Of a stretch of 64,000 nt of DNA, positions 19,243-63,469 are shown in pieces. The notes beneath the pieces were generated by a model. It had not been told where the DNA came from, searched no databases, and worked only from the letters and a program-made list of their open reading frames with translations. The stretch covers positions 64,001 through 128,000 of IMG/VR virus record IMGVR_UViG_3300001528_000360; one strand, given 5' to 3'. How positions within the stretch are numbered: the stretch's first letter is position 1; each line of letters starts with the position of its first letter. The DNA is from a virus. Taxonomy: Duplodnaviria; Caudoviricetes. The position numbers and the translations under genes are program-made.

Positions 19243-22200
19243 ATGAGGAGGGACGTGTTTGTGAGCAACAACAAAGAATTCATCCGTATAGATGAATGGA
19301 GCCCGACAAAACGTGATAACATAATCCTATATGATGGAAAACTTATTGTTATTCCTTTTGATAAGATATTCAATCGCCAGAATAATGAGGCTTTGAATAA
19401 TTTTATTATTAAGAAGGAATCTTATGTAAAAAAGTTAGATCACATCACACACTACATCAATTATTTTATTAAATATTATGATGATGATAACGAGTTACTG
19501 TTATCATATTTAAAGTTAAAATTCTTAATTGACAATAAGTCAAATAATATTCCTATTAGTACTTTCATTAAATTAGTATATAATATTCTTCTTACTGATT
19601 CTATGATTGAAAAAATTAATAAGTTAGTAGAAGATAATTATTATATTGATTTATCTCCTGAAGATACTAATAAGAAGTATAATGAAACACTTGAGTTTAC
19701 AGAAGAACATGCAAAAGTTTTAATGTCAATTTCAATGGCTATGAAACTTATGGTTCCTGTAATGTTTCATTATCTTAATTCTTATGGTCTTATCAAAGAA
19801 AGATCATATATATTCAGATTCTATGAAGGTCTTTTTGATACATTCGGAAATAATATTGATATCTATAATAAGTTATGGGTATCTATCTATGCAAAAGTAA
19901 ATGTCAACTATGTGAGAAATAGCGTTATCTGGGAACAACGCGAGATTAACTAAAAATAGTCTCGATCATATAGCAATATATGATTAGAAACCTCTTTAAT
20001 TGCTGGGAAATCTAAACAAGTAATGTTGTAGACAATCAGCAGCCAAGACTTATTTATATAAGTAAGGTTCAACGACTATCGAAAGCATATCTATAAAAGA
20101 AATTTTATAGAGAAGAAGTGAGTAGAGTACACATATTTATTATATGTGGAAATGGGAGGCTCTTTATATATGGTTATAGTGTATAAAGATGAAGATATAG
20201 TCTATTCCTTATAGAAATATAAGGTATCAAAGATTTGGTGTTAACGCTTTAACTCATATGACTGAATTACTTAAAGATAAAATTATTTCTGAAACTATTT
20301 TCAAATATGAATTCAATAAGAACATTGTGTCGTTAACTAATTAAGCGACATATGTATAGTAATATACATTAGCAACTCTCTTAATTGCTGGGAAATCTAA
20401 ACAAGTAATGTTGTAGATAATCAGCAGCCAAATAATTATACAAATCAAATTTACAAAAAATAAAAAAAAATAATATTGAATGGAGGTGAAAACATGAGTA
20501 AAGAAATATGGACAAAAATATATTATAATAATGAAAAGTTACACTATAGTGTTAGCGATTGTGGACAAATCAGAAATGATAAGACAGGTAATATTTTAGC
20601 ACAATCATCAGATGATAATAATTATAAATTTATAACATTAGAATTAAATGATGGAACTCGTAAAATGTTTAGAGTTCATAGATTAGTTGCTAGTATGTTT
20701 ATGCCTGTTCGTTGTTCTGATGAAATAGAAGTTAATCATAAAGATGGCAATACTTCAAATAATAATATTGAAAATTTAGAATGGTGTACTCATGCTGAAA
20801 ATATGAAACATGCTAATGCTAATAACTTAATTAAGCGTAATACAGGTGACGATCATCCAGGATGTAAATATTCTGATAAATTTATTGATGATGTAGTATC
20901 ATTAATGAGACAAGGTTTAAATAATAGGGAAATTTGTGATAGATTAAATATTAAATCAAATCATAAATTAATAGCATTATTTACTAGTATTAGAAAAGGT
21001 AGAGGAAGATTAAAATCTACTAAAAACTTTGATGATATTCCTTCACATTCATCTAAGAAAAAATGGGATGAAAAATTTGTTAAAGATATATGCAAATTAT
21101 TATCAAAAGGATATTCTACATTAGAAGTTGCAAGTAGATTAGATTTAACTGGTAAATCATCTACTGAAGTTAAAGCATTAATTAGAGACATCAAAAAAGG
21201 TAAACGATTTAAAAGTATTGGAATTACATATGATTTGTATAATTAAAGGTTCAACGACTATCGAAAGGATACTATAAGAGAAATACTTATAGGAGTAACC
21301 GAGTAGAGTACACTTCAAGTGAAGTGGAAATGGAGAGCATCTTATATATGGTAACAGTATATAAGATGAAGATATAGTCTAATCTCTATAGTAATATAGA
21401 GCAGTTCTATTTTTAGAACGATATAAGAGTAACGATCTTATATAAATACTAATGTTAATTATGTTGTTATTGATAAGCAGTTAAGATTCTTTTTGGTTGA
21501 GCCATACAAGCTCAATAGAATCGAGTTATCTGCACATCGAGATGCAAGCGGATTGTCTGGGTAAAGTTTAGCTCAGTATAAACTCTCTTAAATGCTGGAA
21601 AGTCTTTTATAAGATGATCAGCAGCCAAGACTTATTTATATAAGTAAGGTTCAACGACTAGGTGAAAACCGTACATCCAAGTGGATGGAAATGGAGAGCA
21701 TCTTAAATAAGATGAAGATATAGTCTGGTCTCTATAGAAATATAGAGCAGTTCTTAAATGAACGGTATAGAAAGTAACGAGTCTATACGAACATAACATA
21801 GACAAATTAGAAATGAACGCTGCAAAAATCGATGAAAGCACAGTAATTTTATCTAACATCAATATTAAAAAGACACTTAAAAGAATCAAGAATAAAATGC
21901 ATATAGATATTTCTAAAGAGGAAATTGAATATTATAAGCATAATTTGAATATTACTAAATTCCAATCTCAATTAGTATTCTATTATTATGCAAAGTATTT
22001 TAATGGATATAGAGACCTGAATTTGTTAAATAGAACTCAATATCTGAAATTGTTAATCATGTTAAAGAAGAGATTACAGTTTCAATCTTATGTATATCTT
22101 CCGCAGATTATATCCTCTAATGTTGAAAGTAAGCTGAATAGTAGAACGATAAGAAATGATAAGTTCTTAACTAAGATTCAAAGTTCGGCTATTTATCAAC

Positions 22201-58500: not shown

Positions 58501-60605
58501 AATCTCTTTCAATTAAAAATTCAATAACCATGTTATTGAATACTGAGGTTTCTTCTTTCCACTTCACATCTGGGTTAAGGATATCCTTAGCCTTTTTATA
58601 ATAGAAAGCAATATCGGAAGAATATTTACTTCCACTTGTAATGATCTCTTTACATGTATCTAAAACTTTTTCATAAAAGTTTGTTTGCATAATTAAATAC
58701 TTACGAATCTGATGATTGAAAGCATTGTCAGGAACTTCATCCAATGTTTTATTACAATAGATGATAATATCTTTAACAACACCATCAATATAATACAGAT
58801 TATCATTCATAAAATTAATTTTACGAAGATTAGATTTCTTTAAATCATATAAAACCTGATTATTAAAGATTCGTCTTTTAGCACAAAGTATTTTATCTTT
58901 AGTGTTTTCACCAATATCGGGAAATGCTTTATAATAATCTGCATTACCATAAATATTGCAGAGTATGTCGTTGTCGTTCAAACTAACTTTTACCGTCTCA
59001 ATCTCTTTACTAACAAGACGTTTTGCAAAAGACTCTGAACAAACTATTGCATCCTCTATAGTGTGATTCTCTATCATATAGAGAACTTTTACATTTGTTC
59101 CCATTCTATAATTCATATCTTCATCATATGATGTAGACTTATATAGAACTTCACCTTTTTCGATATGGTCTCCAACTTCTTTTTCATCCATTGCTGTATT
59201 GTCATAACCATATCCAAATTTTTCAGTTAAATCTTCATTAATCATCTTAGTAATAACATCATATCTATCATTCTTTTTATCATAAGTAAATAAAAGATAA
59301 AGATGATTATTCAGATTACCATTTTCAAATCTAGGAATTTTTGCATATACTTCTAGATCTGTCTTAGCTTGATAATAACCGGTAGATAATTTACCAACAC
59401 TATTTTCATAGTTAGTAAATACCTTTGGAACATCAGGATTCACTAGATTAACAAACTGACGCAGGTGACTTGTAAACCAATATCTTCATATAAGATCGTT
59501 ACTCTTATACCGTCTATTTAAAGACTGCTCTATATTACTATAGAGATGAGACTATATCTTCATCCTTAGATGAAGTTTTTCATCTAAGGAGTCTCCAATT
59601 TCCACTCACTTGAATGTACTAATAGTCGTTGAACCTTTACATTTTATCTTTAATTCTATATATAGCTTTTCTTGTAATATTACTATATTCTAAATTAAGT
59701 ATATTACAAATTTTTCTAGGTTTAATATCAGGATTATTAATAAATAATATTTTAATTTTTTCAGAAGTATCATTATCAAATGAAAATATTTTAGGTTTAT
59801 AATTATCTGGATTAATATTATATTTTGATGAAATATTAGATCTTGTTCCATAAAATAAAATATCTCTTATAGCATGATATGAAATACCTGTTACTTCCAT
59901 GATTTCAGAAATAGATACATTATCTTCTAACATACTACATACATTTTCTATAAGTTCATCTGAGTATATTGTAAAATTGCATTTATCTCCATATTTTGGA
60001 TTACAACAGTTTCTATCCCATGCATCATTTACATTTTCTCTATCTGTAGCCCACTCTAAATTAGTAACCTTATTATTATTCTTATTTCCATCAATATGAT
60101 TAACTGTGCGTTTATTTTCAGGATTTGGAATAAATGTTTCTGCAACTAATCTATGTGCCATCTTATAATATTTTTTACCATTATGAACTAAATTTACACC
60201 ATTGTAACCAGTATATTTATTAATGGGTATTTTTATTTCATTATTGGTATTCATATTAAAAAGACGACCATCAGATGAAATTATATACATAGTTTTTTCA
60301 CCATTAATATAAACCCATTTAAAATCAACTTCTTCTGTTTTTATAAATATTATCATATTCTCCCTCCTTTTTATTTTATATATAGATAAAATGTACTTGG
60401 CTGCTGATTATCTCAATGAGATTTTCCAGCAATTAAGGAGATTTGTCTATTATATTACTATAATAGGTCACATTTATTTTATGACATTACGACTGGAACT
60501 AATGTATCCAGGATTAGTCAAGAGCGTCATACCGAATATATCATCGGTAAAATGAAATTCTTTTTCTTTCTGTTCTAGTGCTTCTTTTAAGTTTAAGGTT
60601 GACAT
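55585..60605 (-). CDS. Multisubunit RNA polymerase beta subunit, C-terminal part, 4 exons, ~746 aa spliced
   Basis: Exons 60605-60481, 59477-58476, 57632-56984, 56049-55585; SSRNVM|FTSHLRQ, IEDAI, GQKI|TGRQGNKGVVS..DQMPY, KLKQ..SARSTG, IRIGD|QEN. Confidence 0.94.
56050..56983 (-). mobile_element. Group I intron (betaC intron 3) with HNH endonuclease, 934 nt
   Basis: P1 GCGAU/GUUGC; P/Q variant TGCGG/CCGCA; ends in G. Confidence 0.93.
56226..56786 (-). CDS. Intron-encoded HNH homing endonuclease
   Basis: IHRLVAYEF...VNHIDGDKSNNSIYNLEWVTHDENMKH. Confidence 0.93.
   Translation of the reverse strand: MLVQIPGIEKYISYPGVKPDMYTIDSNGNVYNTKTNKYLKPKKTKKGYYAVSLSSGKKKHSTFVFIHRLVAYEFIPNLDNKQFVNHIDGDKSNNSIYNLEWVTHDENMKHAFRTGLFDNKLKTKVGENGCNVKFSDKFVNEIKELVDAGNTKAEVSRIMCNKYPELNLTPKRFQYYIYNLYNGRLK
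57633..58475 (-). mobile_element. Group I intron (betaC intron 2) with HNH endonuclease, 843 nt
   Basis: P1 GAU/GUC; core motifs; ends in G; interrupts the GQKITGRQGNKG motif. Confidence 0.93.
57790..58380 (-). CDS. Intron-encoded HNH homing endonuclease
   Basis: YEISNYGKIRN...IHRLVAWEF...PNHLDSNTKNNFAGNLEWVS..N. Confidence 0.9.
   Translation of the reverse strand: MKGYYNMVVLIYTKEVYKPLTYPGVKKGVYEISNYGKIRNIKTGNIKKPFEHKEYLRIALANDPEYSSKDQTNRSIHRLVAWEFCKGYKEGYIPNHLDSNTKNNFAGNLEWVSSKMNSIYGVFEGNIKCGEDHYLNVFSKNEVIRICEFLQEGYSNMQIMKTFGFHNKSSNPQLYKLIDHIRHRRSWKTISCNYNF
59478..60480 (-). mobile_element. Group I intron (betaC intron 1) with HNH endonuclease, 1003 nt
   Basis: P1 GUCAU/GUGAC; P10 AAAU/GUUU; ends in G. 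Confidence 0.93.
59637..60356 (-). CDS. Intron-encoded HNH homing endonuclease
   Basis: AHRLVAETFIPNP...VNHIDGNKNNNKVTNLEWATDREN. Confidence 0.93.
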   Translation of the reverse strand: MIIFIKTEEVDFKWVYINGEKTMYIISSDGRLFNMNTNNEIKIPINKYTGYNGVNLVHNGKKYYKMAHRLVAETFIPNPENKRTVNHIDGNKNNNKVTNLEWATDRENVNDAWDRNCCNPKYGDKCNFTIYSDELIENVCSMLEDNVSISEIMEVTGISYHAIRDILFYGTRSNISSKYNINPDNYKPKIFSFDNDTSEKIKILFINNPDIKPRKICNILNLEYSNITRKAIYRIKDKM

Positions 60606-61020: not shown

Positions 61021-63469
61021 TTAACATTCAGGTTCAGGTTCAATGGGATCCTCATTAGGCTTAACATAAGAAAGCATATCTTCTAAATACGGAGTAACAG
61101 AATCCATTAAAGTCTTCTTAAGTTCATCACTTTCATTGAAGCATTCCCTGAATTTTCTACTATCAAATTTAATATCTTTATTAGTCTTAAAATATCTATA
61201 GGGATTACGACCATCAATCATATTATTATCAGAAGCAAACTGATAAAGAGTTAAAATAGGATCAAATCCAGTTAATTGATTATAAATTAAATTACATGAT
61301 TGTCCAGACTTATTAGAACGAGATTTAATTAATTCAGCTCGAACCATAAATCCATCAAATCCATCATCTTCTTTTTTAAACTTAGTAGAAGATACAAATT
61401 TAATTAATGTATTAGCATAATATAAAGGAGCGGTACCACCTGGATGTAGGTACATTTATATATGTTTCCATATAAAACAGACTATATCTTCATTTTATAT
61501 TCTATTACCAAATATAAAATGCTCTCCACTTCCACTCTCTATACAGAGTGTACTCTACTTGCTTCTTCTCATAGATATTTCTTCTATGATATGCTTTCGA
61601 TAGTCGTTGAACTTTCTAGTAATTATAATTATTACAAATAAATTTCCATCTTTCTTTTTTATATATTTTTCTTAGAGAATTAATATTTGAAGCTGTTACG
61701 GGTAATGATAAATATTCTAGACAATGAATACAGTGTTGTCTTAAACTTTCATTATCATCTTTAGAATTATTCTGAAAATATTTACATATATTATGAATAT
61801 CATCAAATGAAAATACTTTAGATATTTTTTCAGTTTTAAAATCTAAATTATATTTAGATGATATTTCTTTCCATGCTCTACCTTGTTTAATAGATTCTAC
61901 AATTCCTACAGTTGTTCCAACAAGTTTAGCAATATCCTTTTGCATATACATTCTGGATTCTAGATATTTGCATATTTGTTCAGCTTGTTGTGTAGTGATA
62001 GTTGCACAACAATGTGATTCGCTATGTGCAGGATGTAATAAACCAGAATCTCTAGCATGAATAGAATTACCTTTAATATCAGTCCATTCTAAATTATATA
62101 AAAATGAATTTAATTTATTACCATCTAAATGATTTACTACTTTTCCTTTATAATCATCTAATGGATTAAAAACCATCATTAGTATTCTATGTAATGTAAC
62201 ATCTCGTTGTCTAGTTGTTTTACATGCACATGTAAATACATAATAACCGGTATGTTTATTAACTTTCATTTTTAAGATCTTTTTACTAATAAGACTGTAC
62301 ACTCTAGAATAATTAGATATATAATACCCGTCTTTTATATCTGGAATTTCATTCTCTGTAATTGGTAGAAATATTTCAAGTGGAAATTTTTCTAAAGAAT
62401 CTAATTCTTTATTTTGAGATACATTAAATTTTTTAATATATGACTCAATATCTTTAATCATAATAATAATTCTCCTTGTATTTATAACATAATGCATTTA
62501 TTATTATGTTATAAATACATTTTATAATTACTAGCTTAGTTGCGGATTGTCCAATCTTTTAATTTATTACTATACCTTAGATAGTTAGTCTAAGCCACCA
62601 TAATATTACTATTATAGTTTAGTATTAAAAGCTCTAAGGAGTTTCCCGCAGTTCAGAGAGTTTTTTATAGAGTCCCCTCCAGGATTTTATTTAAGGGACT
62701 CATCTTGCTTAAGGTACATAAGTTGTGATTGTGTCTTAGCAAAAGCACTTACTTCAATCTTTACATTGATATGATTAATAGCAAAGATTGTAATATTGTA
62801 TGTTTTAATAATAGGCATAAGACGACTATAAAATTGCTTTAATTGTTTAGCAGCTCTCATAGCATCTGTCTGTCCCTTCATTTCCTCTTCTCCTTCAGTT
62901 TCTCTAGAAGCTAAAGTAGGAATAGAGTCAACGATAACAATAGTAGGGACATATGCTCTGATAGGATTATTAAATTCATCAACATTACCAGTATCATACA
63001 TAAAAGACTTCTTATCAGATTCTTTCATATTAGCAATGCTGATAATACTATCAAAGATATCTTCAATATAATTCTTCTCTTGTCTTAATACAAATTTATT
63101 ATTAAGCTCTTCTTGAGTAGCTCCAGTAATATTTTTAATTCGTGTATAATTCAATGCTTGCTCTAAATCATAACAGAGAACAAAAGCATCATCACTAAAA
63201 TTCTTTACCATATTATATGCACTTTGGAGAACCCAGGTTGTCTTAGCAACACCGGACTTTCCAATAACAGTTACAAATGTACCACCAGTAATACCAATGG
63301 CAGGGTACTCACCAATTAGTTTTTCATTAATATCCATTACCTTAACTTTATATCCATTAAGGTAATCAAATGTGGAGAATCCTGTAGGATAGTTAACTGA
63401 AACCTGAGAAGAATTAAATAATCCTTTCTTATCCTTCTCACGTAATCTATCGAGTAAACGATTTGCCAT
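61021..63469 (-). CDS. recA: RecA/UvsX-like recombinase, 2 exons, ~399 aa spliced
   Basis: Exons 63469-62694 and 61444-61021; Walker A GKSGVAKTT, YDLE, IVDSI, AINH, junction DESL|PGGTAPLYYA, IKSR. Confidence 0.9.
61445..62693 (-). mobile_element. Group I intron (recA) with HNH endonuclease, 1249 nt, apparent terminal A
   Basis: 8-bp P1 GAGUCCCU/GGGGACUC; 6-bp P10 CCUGGA/UCCAGG; last intron nucleotide is A. Confidence 0.93.
61616..62497 (-). CDS. Intron-encoded HNH homing endonuclease (start probably 62461)
   Basis: YYISNYSRV...LHRILM...VNHLDGNKLNSFLYNLEWTD..N..H plus C-terminal HTH. Confidence 0.9.
   Translation of the reverse strand: MHYVINTRRIIIMIKDIESYIKKFNVSQNKELDSLEKFPLEIFLPITENEIPDIKDGYYISNYSRVYSLISKKILKMKVNKHTGYYVFTCACKTTRQRDVTLHRILMMVFNPLDDYKGKVVNHLDGNKLNSFLYNLEWTDIKGNSIHARDSGLLHPAHSESHCCATITTQQAEQICKYLESRMYMQKDIAKLVGTTVGIVESIKQGRAWKEISSKYNLDFKTEKISKVFSFDDIHNICKYFQNNSKDDNESLRQHCIHCLEYLSLPVTASNINSLRKIYKKERWKFICNNYNY

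What the first reader, a model, noticed from the sequence alone, without database searches (positions are those of the whole stretch)
61445..62693. recA intron ends in A instead of the canonical omega-G
Seen: P1 (8 bp) fixes the 5' site after GAGTCCCT. A perfect 6-bp P10 (CCUGGA/UCCAGG) fixes the 3' exon start at TCCAGGT, giving ESL-PGG. The preceding intron base is A (...TACCTACA). Using the nearest upstream G (61453) breaks the frame. The P7 G-binding pair appears canonical. Established: omega-G is nearly invariant in group I introns; omega-A is known to me only from a few organellar introns. Inference: a strong P10 may compensate, or the intron splices slowly or needs a helper.
Basis: partly seen in the sequence, partly recalled or inferred. 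Interest (0 to 1): 0.72.

Follow-up and report, generated by a model that had tools for sequence, protein, structure and literature searches.

The report
Phage recA intron ending in A

Summary
On the minus strand, exon 1 (63469..62694) ends GAGUCCCU and pairs 8/8 with the guide GGGGACUC, with a U.G pair at the cut. Intronless homologs (78-79% identical over the joined protein) read ...KQDESLPGGxAPIYYA. The junction must therefore be CU|U CCA, and the last intron base is A61445. A 6-bp P10 (CCUGGA/UCCAGG) abuts P1.

Every G-ending alternative fails. G61453 and G61440 break the frame. G61439 deletes Pro-Gly of an invariant PGG.

Sequencing error is very unlikely. Introns at the same site in four other assemblies also end ...ACA|U, and a fifth is inferred from its protein. 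One of them carries a compensatory double change in P10. Two siblings end in G. The P7 strands that carry the guanosine pocket are identical in all.

A second intron in this phage (window 21563-21798) also ends in A by homolog evidence.

Published precedents exist: Coxiella 23S L1917 and hexacoral ND5-717. Earlier notes of this scan report A-ending introns in other giant phages.

Verdict: a real new member of a known rare kind, of moderate interest.

The parts
62694..63469 (-). recA/UvsX-like recombinase exon 1 (258 codons plus 2 nt; Walker A GKSGVAKTT)
   Evidence: ORF list; Pfam KaiC/RecA weak hits; 177 homologs; phage UvsX-like recombinases at 32-35% identity
62694..62701 (-). P1 exon strand GAGUCCCU; U62694 is the 5' splice-site U of the U.G pair
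   Evidence: invariant in all same-site introns
61445..62693 (-). Group I intron (IA2-like), 1249 nt
   Evidence: Junction fixed by homologs; Rfam RF00028 partial hit on the 3' half, 40.8 bits; ORF-less sibling L029 scores 91.5 bits
62678..62683 (-). P10 guide CCUGGA, directly 5' of the P1 guide
   Evidence: compensatory change to CCAGGA in L021
62670..62677 (-). P1 internal guide GGGGACUC
62541..62660 (-). P3 5' strand (62660-62655), P4 (62650-62645 with 62546-62541) and an extended P5 arm
   Evidence: P4 and P5 pairs covary among siblings
61616..62461 (-). Intron ORF (281 aa) in the P6 loop, an HNH/NUMOD4-type homing endonuclease; its stop codon lies in the 3' strand of P6
   Evidence: NUMOD4 23.7 bits, HNH_3 18.8 bits; P6 strands 62534-62522 and 61628-61616
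61600..61612 (-). J6/7 and P7 5' strand GUUCAACGACUAU (carries the G of the guanosine-binding G-C pair)
   Evidence: invariant in A-ending and G-ending siblings; close to the Rfam consensus
61535..61588 (-). P7.1 (61588-61570), P7.2 (61556-61545) and P3 3' strand (61540-61535)
   Evidence: compensatory changes in P7.1 and P7.2
61479..61522 (-). P8 (61522-61491) and J8/7 with P7 3' strand AAGAUAUAGUCU (61490-61479)
61455..61477 (-). P9 hairpin with GAAA loop
61445..61454 (-). 3' tail UGUACCUACA; A61445 is the terminal (omega) nucleotide
61439..61444 (-). P10 exon strand UCCAGG (last base of the Leu codon, then the Pro codon and two bases of the first Gly codon)
61021..61444 (-). recA/UvsX-like exon 2 (PGGTAPLYYANTLIKF... 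to the stop codon)

Best explanation
This is a genuine group I (IA2-like) mobile intron with an HNH homing-endonuclease gene. It sits in the L2-loop region (DESL|PGG) of the UvsX/RecA-like recombinase gene of an AR9/PBS1-like giant phage, and its 3'-terminal nucleotide is A, not G. Shown here: the splice junction, the ribozyme core, P1, P10, and inheritance of the terminal A in several diverged relatives. Inferred: the first step is normal, because free guanosine should bind the unchanged G-C pocket in P7 and attack after U62694. In the second step the 3' splice site would be held in place mainly by the 6-bp P10, and possibly by a 2-bp P9.0 (AC before the A, with GU after P7). That would let exon 1 attack the phosphate after A61445 although A fits the guanosine pocket poorly. 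The intron would then splice well enough in vivo to make a 399-aa recombinase. The A may be merely tolerated. It may also be favoured because it suppresses 3'-splice-site hydrolysis, as proposed for the hexacoral ND5-717 intron.
For: Junction: 15 intronless homologs read DESLPGGxAP, with P, G, G invariant, and the joined frame is open and colinear. P1 is 8 bp with U.G, and P10 is 6 bp abutting it. The chance of a perfect 6-mer at a position fixed independently by protein homology is about 1 in 4096.

Inheritance: same-site introns from other assemblies end ...ACACACA|UCC (L021, L022/L023, L029) or ...UUACUACA|UCC (L172). P0125 has His before PGG, which implies A.

Selection for this exact 3' site: L021 has exon CCU where the window has CCA, together with guide CCAGGA where the window has CCUGGA, so P10 is kept by a double change. 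PGG codons in intron-bearing alleles differ only synonymously (CCA, CCU, CCG).

Live ribozyme: there are many compensatory pairs in P4, P5, P6, P7.1, P7.2, P8 and P9, including among the A-ending alleles themselves. L029 scores 91.5 bits on RF00028. The HNH ORF is intact.

Pocket unchanged: the P7 strands are identical in the five aligned full introns, four A-ending and one G-ending.

Second case: the intron at window 21563-21798 also must end in A, because homologs read GLSG[LMI]DKLEM.

Precedent: ND5-717 ends in A and is spliced in vivo (PMC8146996; PMC6545197).
Against: No RNA evidence was obtained: the spliced junction was not observed and the base was not checked in reads. In engineered Tetrahymena ribozymes, changing the terminal G to A severely impairs exon ligation (from memory: Michel 1989; Been & Perrotta 1991), so efficient self-splicing is not guaranteed. 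Two close siblings (L026/L027 and L173) have G at this position, so the A could be a mildly harmful variant spread by homing. P9.0 is not consistent: it is absent in L172 and competes with the P9 stem in the window.
Confidence: 0.8

Rival explanations
1. The intron ends in A as described, but the second step needs a protein helper (host or phage encoded) and the naked RNA does not ligate exons.
For: A terminal A should bind the unchanged G-C pocket weakly (established ribozyme biochemistry, from memory). The obligatory ND5-717 intron is listed among host-factor-dependent introns (PMC3679873). This phage carries at least 23 introns and two of them end in A, which is compatible with a shared factor.
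Against: No candidate maturase was identified. The intron ORF is an ordinary HNH/NUMOD4 endonuclease. The Coxiella paper's title calls both of its introns self-splicing, including the one that lacks the terminal G (title cited in PMC3428280).
Confidence: 0.25
2. The intron is decaying and no longer splices. The recombinase gene is then dead, or works as two separate polypeptides.
For: The terminal G is missing. G-ending siblings exist. In the window, exon 2 happens to have an in-frame AUG 4 codons upstream.
Against: Both exons stay intact and conserved, and the terminal A recurs in alleles whose exon 1 is only about 77% identical (exon 2 62-70%). The ribozyme helices covary and P10 is kept by a double change. 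Other A-ending alleles have no start codon near the exon 2 border (L021, L022). The break lies inside the conserved core just before the invariant PGG.
Confidence: 0.08
3. Splicing uses a real G. The intron ends at G61439 (UCCAGG|U), which gives an in-frame protein lacking Pro-Gly (ESL-GTAP).
For: This choice keeps the frame open and restores a terminal G.
Against: It removes two residues of a PGG that is invariant in 17 homologs. It turns the P10 partner into intron sequence. It does not explain why the CCN GGU codons change only synonymously, or why the guide covaries with CCA/CCU.
Confidence: 0.04
4. A61445 is an assembly or sequencing error, and the true base is G.
For: The record is a metagenome-assembled viral contig, and reads could not be consulted.
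Against: Four other assemblies from different samples, with three different tail sequences, all have A at this position. A second intron in the same contig shows the same feature.
Confidence: 0.02

Closest known systems
Coxiella burnetii 23S rRNA group I intron lacking the terminal G (Raghavan, Miller, Hicks & Minnick 2007, J Bacteriol 189:6572; title seen as reference 20 of PMC3428280, paper not held)
   Same: A bacterial-world group I intron that lacks the canonical terminal G, and that the paper's title describes as self-splicing.
   Different: It lies in rRNA, not in a phage protein-coding gene, and is in a different setting and probably a different subgroup. That the base is A, and that the intron is L1917, are from my memory. 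No natural G-ending sibling at the same site is known to me.
Hexacoral mitochondrial ND5-717 group I intron (PMC8146996; PMC6545197)
   Same: The terminal nucleotide is A where G is expected, yet RNA-seq and RT-PCR show perfectly ligated exons. [quoted passage not shown]
   Different: It is an organellar, obligatory, vertically inherited intron carrying whole genes in P8, and is thought to depend on host factors. The present intron is a mobile phage IA2-type intron with an HNH endonuclease.
Phage IA2 introns (T4 td, nrdB, sunY; Staphylococcus phage Twort; Bacillus phage SPO1) and the Bacillus anthracis recA intron (Ko et al. 2002, cited in PMC3984707)
   Same: Same core (GUUCAACGACUA ... GAAGAUAUAGUCU), P7.1/P7.2, an endonuclease ORF in a peripheral loop, an in-frame stop just after the 5' splice site, and insertion in a conserved DNA-metabolism gene.
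   Different: As far as I know (memory) those introns end in G. Whether the B. anthracis recA intron occupies the same codon was not checked.
Engineered Tetrahymena ribozymes with G264-C311 changed to A-U and the terminal G changed to A (Michel et al. 1989; Been & Perrotta 1991; from memory)
   Same: They address the same question, namely what sits in the guanosine pocket during exon ligation.
   Different: In those ribozymes the pocket was changed to match the A. Here the pocket pair stays G-C, so no specificity switch is indicated.

Membership tests
Group I intron (Rfam RF00028, IA2-like) | Conserved catalytic core P3-P8 with the J8/7-P7 motif | tested here: met
   The window's 3' half scores 40.8 bits; it is below the cut-off because the ORF splits the core. 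The ORF-less same-site sibling L029 scores 91.5 bits against a cut-off of 50. Core strands are located.
Group I intron (Rfam RF00028, IA2-like) | P1 helix between the exon 1 end and an internal guide, with a U.G pair at the 5' splice site | tested here: met
   8 bp, GAGUCCCU with GGGGACUC, with U62694.G62677
Group I intron (Rfam RF00028, IA2-like) | Terminal guanosine (omega-G) at the 3' end | tested here: not met
   The last base is A61445 by homolog-defined junction. No G-ending alternative gives the conserved protein.
Group I intron (Rfam RF00028, IA2-like) | P10 pairing of the guide with the start of exon 2 | tested here: met
   6 bp, with a compensatory double change in L021
Group I intron (Rfam RF00028, IA2-like) | Guanosine-binding G-C pair in P7 | tested here: met
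   ACGACUA with UAGUCU is identical to the G-ending sibling L026 and matches the Rfam consensus except at one position. Assignment of the pocket pair rests on homology to Tetrahymena G264-C311 (established knowledge).
Group I intron (Rfam RF00028, IA2-like) | Self-splicing that yields ligated exons | not testable with these tools
HNH/NUMOD4 homing endonuclease | HNH and NUMOD4 motifs in an ORF inside a peripheral intron loop | tested here: inconclusive
   NUMOD4 scores 23.7 bits (cut-off 23.4). HNH_3 scores 18.8 bits (cut-off 24.8). The ORF lies in the P6 loop. Activity is untested.
RecA/UvsX-family recombinase | RecA-fold ATPase with Walker A and the L2-region GG motif; homology to phage UvsX | tested here: met
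   Pfam KaiC and RecA hits are below cut-off. Homologs carry PF00154/PF06745. tblastn hits to AR9, PBS1 and Staphylococcus jumbo-phage 'UvsX-like recombinase' at 32-35% identity.

The most novel reading that the evidence does not exclude
In AR9-like giant phages a terminal A is a recurrent, selected state of group I introns. Here it is seen in two unrelated introns of one genome and in 6 of 8 alleles at the recA site. It might steer processing, for example by blocking 3'-splice-site hydrolysis, or by making exon ligation depend on P10/P9.0 or on a phage or host factor. The natural A-ending and G-ending sibling pairs at one site would then make the 'universal' terminal-G requirement directly testable.
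Probability: 0.25. Interest if true: 0.65.

Novelty: new member of a known kind. Interest (0 to 1): 0.5.

Why it matters
The terminal G is treated as a defining, catalytically essential nucleotide of group I introns, and annotation tools and textbook mechanisms assume it. This locus adds phage protein-coding genes to the few settings where a terminal A is found. Unusually, it also supplies natural controls: near-identical introns at the same codon end in G (L026, L173) or in A (the window, L172, L021, L022, L029), all with an unchanged guanosine pocket. That set is a ready-made experiment on how P10 and P9.0 can substitute for pocket binding in the second step. It could also test whether the A suppresses side reactions. 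In practice, it warns that splice-site callers requiring a terminal G will misannotate such genes.

Tried and rejected
- A pattern scan for the P1/guide motif in metagenome contigs was too unspecific. The same pattern in viral contigs gave 4 chance hits.
- Viral-contig scans with the protein and with a profile found only intronless relatives, or introns at other positions.
- An automated splice-site survey of the other 16 full-length introns of the genome was too noisy to give their terminal bases. The statement that most of them end in G therefore rests on inspection of their tails and on unchecked first-stage notes.
- Rejected junctions: G61453, G61440 and G61439. The 1-nt slid register would give a terminal U and loses the U.G pair.
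- A-to-I editing of the terminal A was considered and dropped. As far as I remember, the known bacterial editing motif is UACG with the first A edited, and that does not place the edited base at this position.
- The Coxiella papers (PMC2045182, PMC2519523, PMC3187410) and the B. anthracis recA intron paper (PMC135159) are not held.
- The contigs of P0024 and P0006 end inside the intron, and the contig of P0043 had no DNA available.

Full report
WHAT IS THERE

The window is bases 64001-128000 of a 152-kb IMG/VR phage record. That record gives 23 matches to the Rfam group I intron model, 16 of them above the curated cut-off.

On the minus strand, an ORF of 260 codons (63469..62687) and an ORF of 144 codons (61455..61021) flank a 293-codon ORF. 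The first ORF has weak KaiC/RecA Pfam hits. The middle ORF has NUMOD4 and HNH_3 hits. By tblastn, the recombinase resembles the 'UvsX-like recombinase' of AR9, PBS1 and Staphylococcus jumbo phages at 32-35% identity. Related contigs carry a tubulin gene and an RNA-polymerase beta-subunit (Rpb2-domain) gene nearby.

THE JUNCTION

A search with exon 1 found 177 relatives. Many are uninterrupted proteins of about 388-400 aa that are 79-86% identical over exon 1. Aligned with both exons, they read ...MYLKQDESLPGGxAPIYYANTLIKF, and P, G, G are invariant.

At the nucleotide level, exon 1 ends GAG UCC CU and exon 2 begins U CCA GGU GGU. Joining 62694 to 61444 gives a single open frame of 399 codons. 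It is colinear with P0003, P0004 and P0005 and 78-79% identical to them. The intron is therefore 62693..61445 and ends ...GUACCUACA.

The alternatives that end in G all fail:
- G61453 gives a stop after 15 codons.
- G61440 breaks the frame.
- G61439 stays in frame but deletes Pro-Gly of the invariant PGG.

Because both borders share a U, the junction could formally be slid by one base. That would make the last base U, and it would replace the U.G pair of P1 with U-A.

RNA STRUCTURE

- P1 is 8 bp (GAGUCCCU with GGGGACUC) and has the canonical U.G pair at the cut.
- The six bases just 5' of that guide (CCUGGA) are perfectly complementary to the first six bases of exon 2, which is P10.
- The remainder is a typical IA2-like core: P3, P4, an extended P5 arm, P6 holding the endonuclease ORF in its loop, GUUCAACGACUAU (J6/7-P7), P7.1, P7.2, P3', P8, GAAGAUAUAGUCU (J8/7-P7'), and a P9 hairpin with a GAAA loop.
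- A 10-nt tail follows P9.
- An ORF-less sibling at the same site (L029) scores 91.5 bits on RF00028.

RELATIVES AT THE SAME SITE

Many database homologs of exon 1 stop right after DESL and read into intron-like sequence. I fetched their DNA. Introns inserted at exactly CU|N CCN GGU GGU fall into two groups.

Ending in A:
- the window: ...UACCUACA|UCCAGG
- L172: ...UUACUACA|UCCGGG
- L021: ...ACACACA|UCCUGG
- L022/L023: ...ACACACA|UCCAGG
- L029: ...ACACACA|UCCAGG
- by inference, the source of P0125, which has His before PGG

Ending in G:
- L026/L027: ...UUCCUG|UCCAGG
- L173: ...UUACCG|ACCAGG

The sequences come from different samples, and their exons are 62-85% identical to the window's. A sequencing error at 61445 is therefore not a credible explanation.

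L021 is the most telling case. Its proline codon is CCU where the window has CCA, and its guide is CCAGGA where the window has CCUGGA. P10 is thus preserved by a double change, in register with a cut after the A.

Across the five complete introns there are many compensatory changes in P4, P5, P6, P7.1, P7.2, P8 and P9. Some of these separate A-ending alleles from one another. The ribozyme is therefore under selection in these lineages.

The P7 strands are identical in the A-ending and G-ending alleles of the five-intron alignment. There is no sign of a re-specified nucleoside pocket.

A SECOND CASE IN THE SAME PHAGE

An earlier first-stage note pointed to the intron at window 21563-21798. I checked it.
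- P1 is CUGGGU with GCUCAG, and the cut follows U21562.
- P10 is GUUUA with UAGAC.
- The tail reads ...GAACAUAACA|UAGAC.
- Uninterrupted homologs read GLSG[LMI]DKLEM. This matches a cut after A21798 (GLSG-L-D-KLEM).
- It does not match the in-frame G three bases further on, which would give GLSG-Y-KLEM, one residue short and lacking the conserved Asp.

Two introns of different sub-architecture in one phage therefore end in A.

MECHANISM (INFERRED)

With the G-C pocket intact, free guanosine should start splicing normally. For exon ligation, the terminal A must occupy or bypass the guanosine pocket. The 3' site is probably positioned by the 6-bp P10.

A 2-bp P9.0 may also contribute, formed by the AC preceding the A and a GU just after P7. 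That pairing is available in the window, L021, L022, L029 and the second intron. It is absent in L172, and in the window it competes with the P9 stem, so I treat it as weak.

The G-ending siblings L026/L027 share the same P10 (L173's guide is not on its contig). A strong P10 therefore looks like a permissive background and not a specific compensation.

COMPARISON WITH WHAT IS KNOWN

The terminal G is described as universally conserved, but exceptions are published.
- The sea-anemone and mushroom-coral mitochondrial ND5-717 intron ends in A, and RNA data show perfectly ligated exons. [quoted passage not shown]
- A Coxiella burnetii 23S rRNA intron 'lacks the canonical omega G' and is described as self-splicing. 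I have this only from the title cited in PMC3428280 and PMC11270868, because the paper itself is not held.

Notes from this scan (unchecked by me) also report A-ending introns in other giant-phage genes. One of them is said to have RNA evidence of exact splicing. I use those only as leads.

VERDICT

The intron is a real group I intron that fails one defining feature of the family, the terminal G, while meeting the others.

It is most likely splicing-competent (about 0.8), but no RNA evidence could be obtained here. It is a new member of a known rare kind. Its particular value is the natural set of A-ending and G-ending siblings at one insertion site.

Noticed in passing
window 21563-21798 (+): A second group I intron in the same phage also ends in A. 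P1 is CUGGGU with GCUCAG (cut after U21562), P10 is GUUUA with UAGAC, and the tail reads ...GAACAUAACA|UAGAC. About 20 uninterrupted homologs read GLSG[LMI]DKLEM, which fits only the cut after the A; the in-frame G 3 nt downstream would drop the conserved Asp.
   Followed up: yes
whole record G000 (window = 64001-128000): The intron load is very heavy: 23 RF00028 matches in 152 kb, 16 above the cut-off and several with HNH ORFs. Most have a longer 3' domain (P9.1/P9.2) and tails such as ...AUAUGAACAUAAACG|. Their terminal bases were not verified one by one.
   Followed up: partly
homologs of exon 1 (P0025, P0044, P0053, P0061, P0062, P0068, P0100 and others): The L2-loop region of this recombinase is an intron hot spot. 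Database homologs are interrupted at no fewer than five different positions within about 20 codons (after INP, DESL, DESxP, PGGE and PGGNAP). L016, L019 and L174 carry different introns a few codons away.
   Followed up: partly
L009/L010 (about 1501 and 5766) compared with window 62701-61436: Intronless alleles use different synonymous codons at the insertion site (GAUGAAAGCUUACCGGGAGGU) from intron-bearing alleles (GAUGAGUCCCU|UCCAGGUGGU). The latter are almost identical across otherwise diverged phages, as expected from co-conversion plus P1/P10 constraint, and perhaps from endonuclease-site immunity.
   Followed up: no
window 59470-60485 (-): The next gene downstream holds another group I intron with an HNH/NUMOD4 ORF (59637-60356). 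P1 is GUCAU with GUGAC. Its tail ...UAUAUGAAG|AUAUUGG offers two in-frame G endings 3 nt apart, and the exact 3' site was not resolved.
   Followed up: partly
window 61445-61454 compared with L173 and L172 tails: The A-ending tails of the window (UACCUACA|U) and L172 (UUACUACA|U) look like the G-ending tail of L173 (UUACCG|A) with UACA in place of the G. All A-ending alleles, and the second intron, share ACA|U at the border. The meaning of this is unknown.
   Followed up: no
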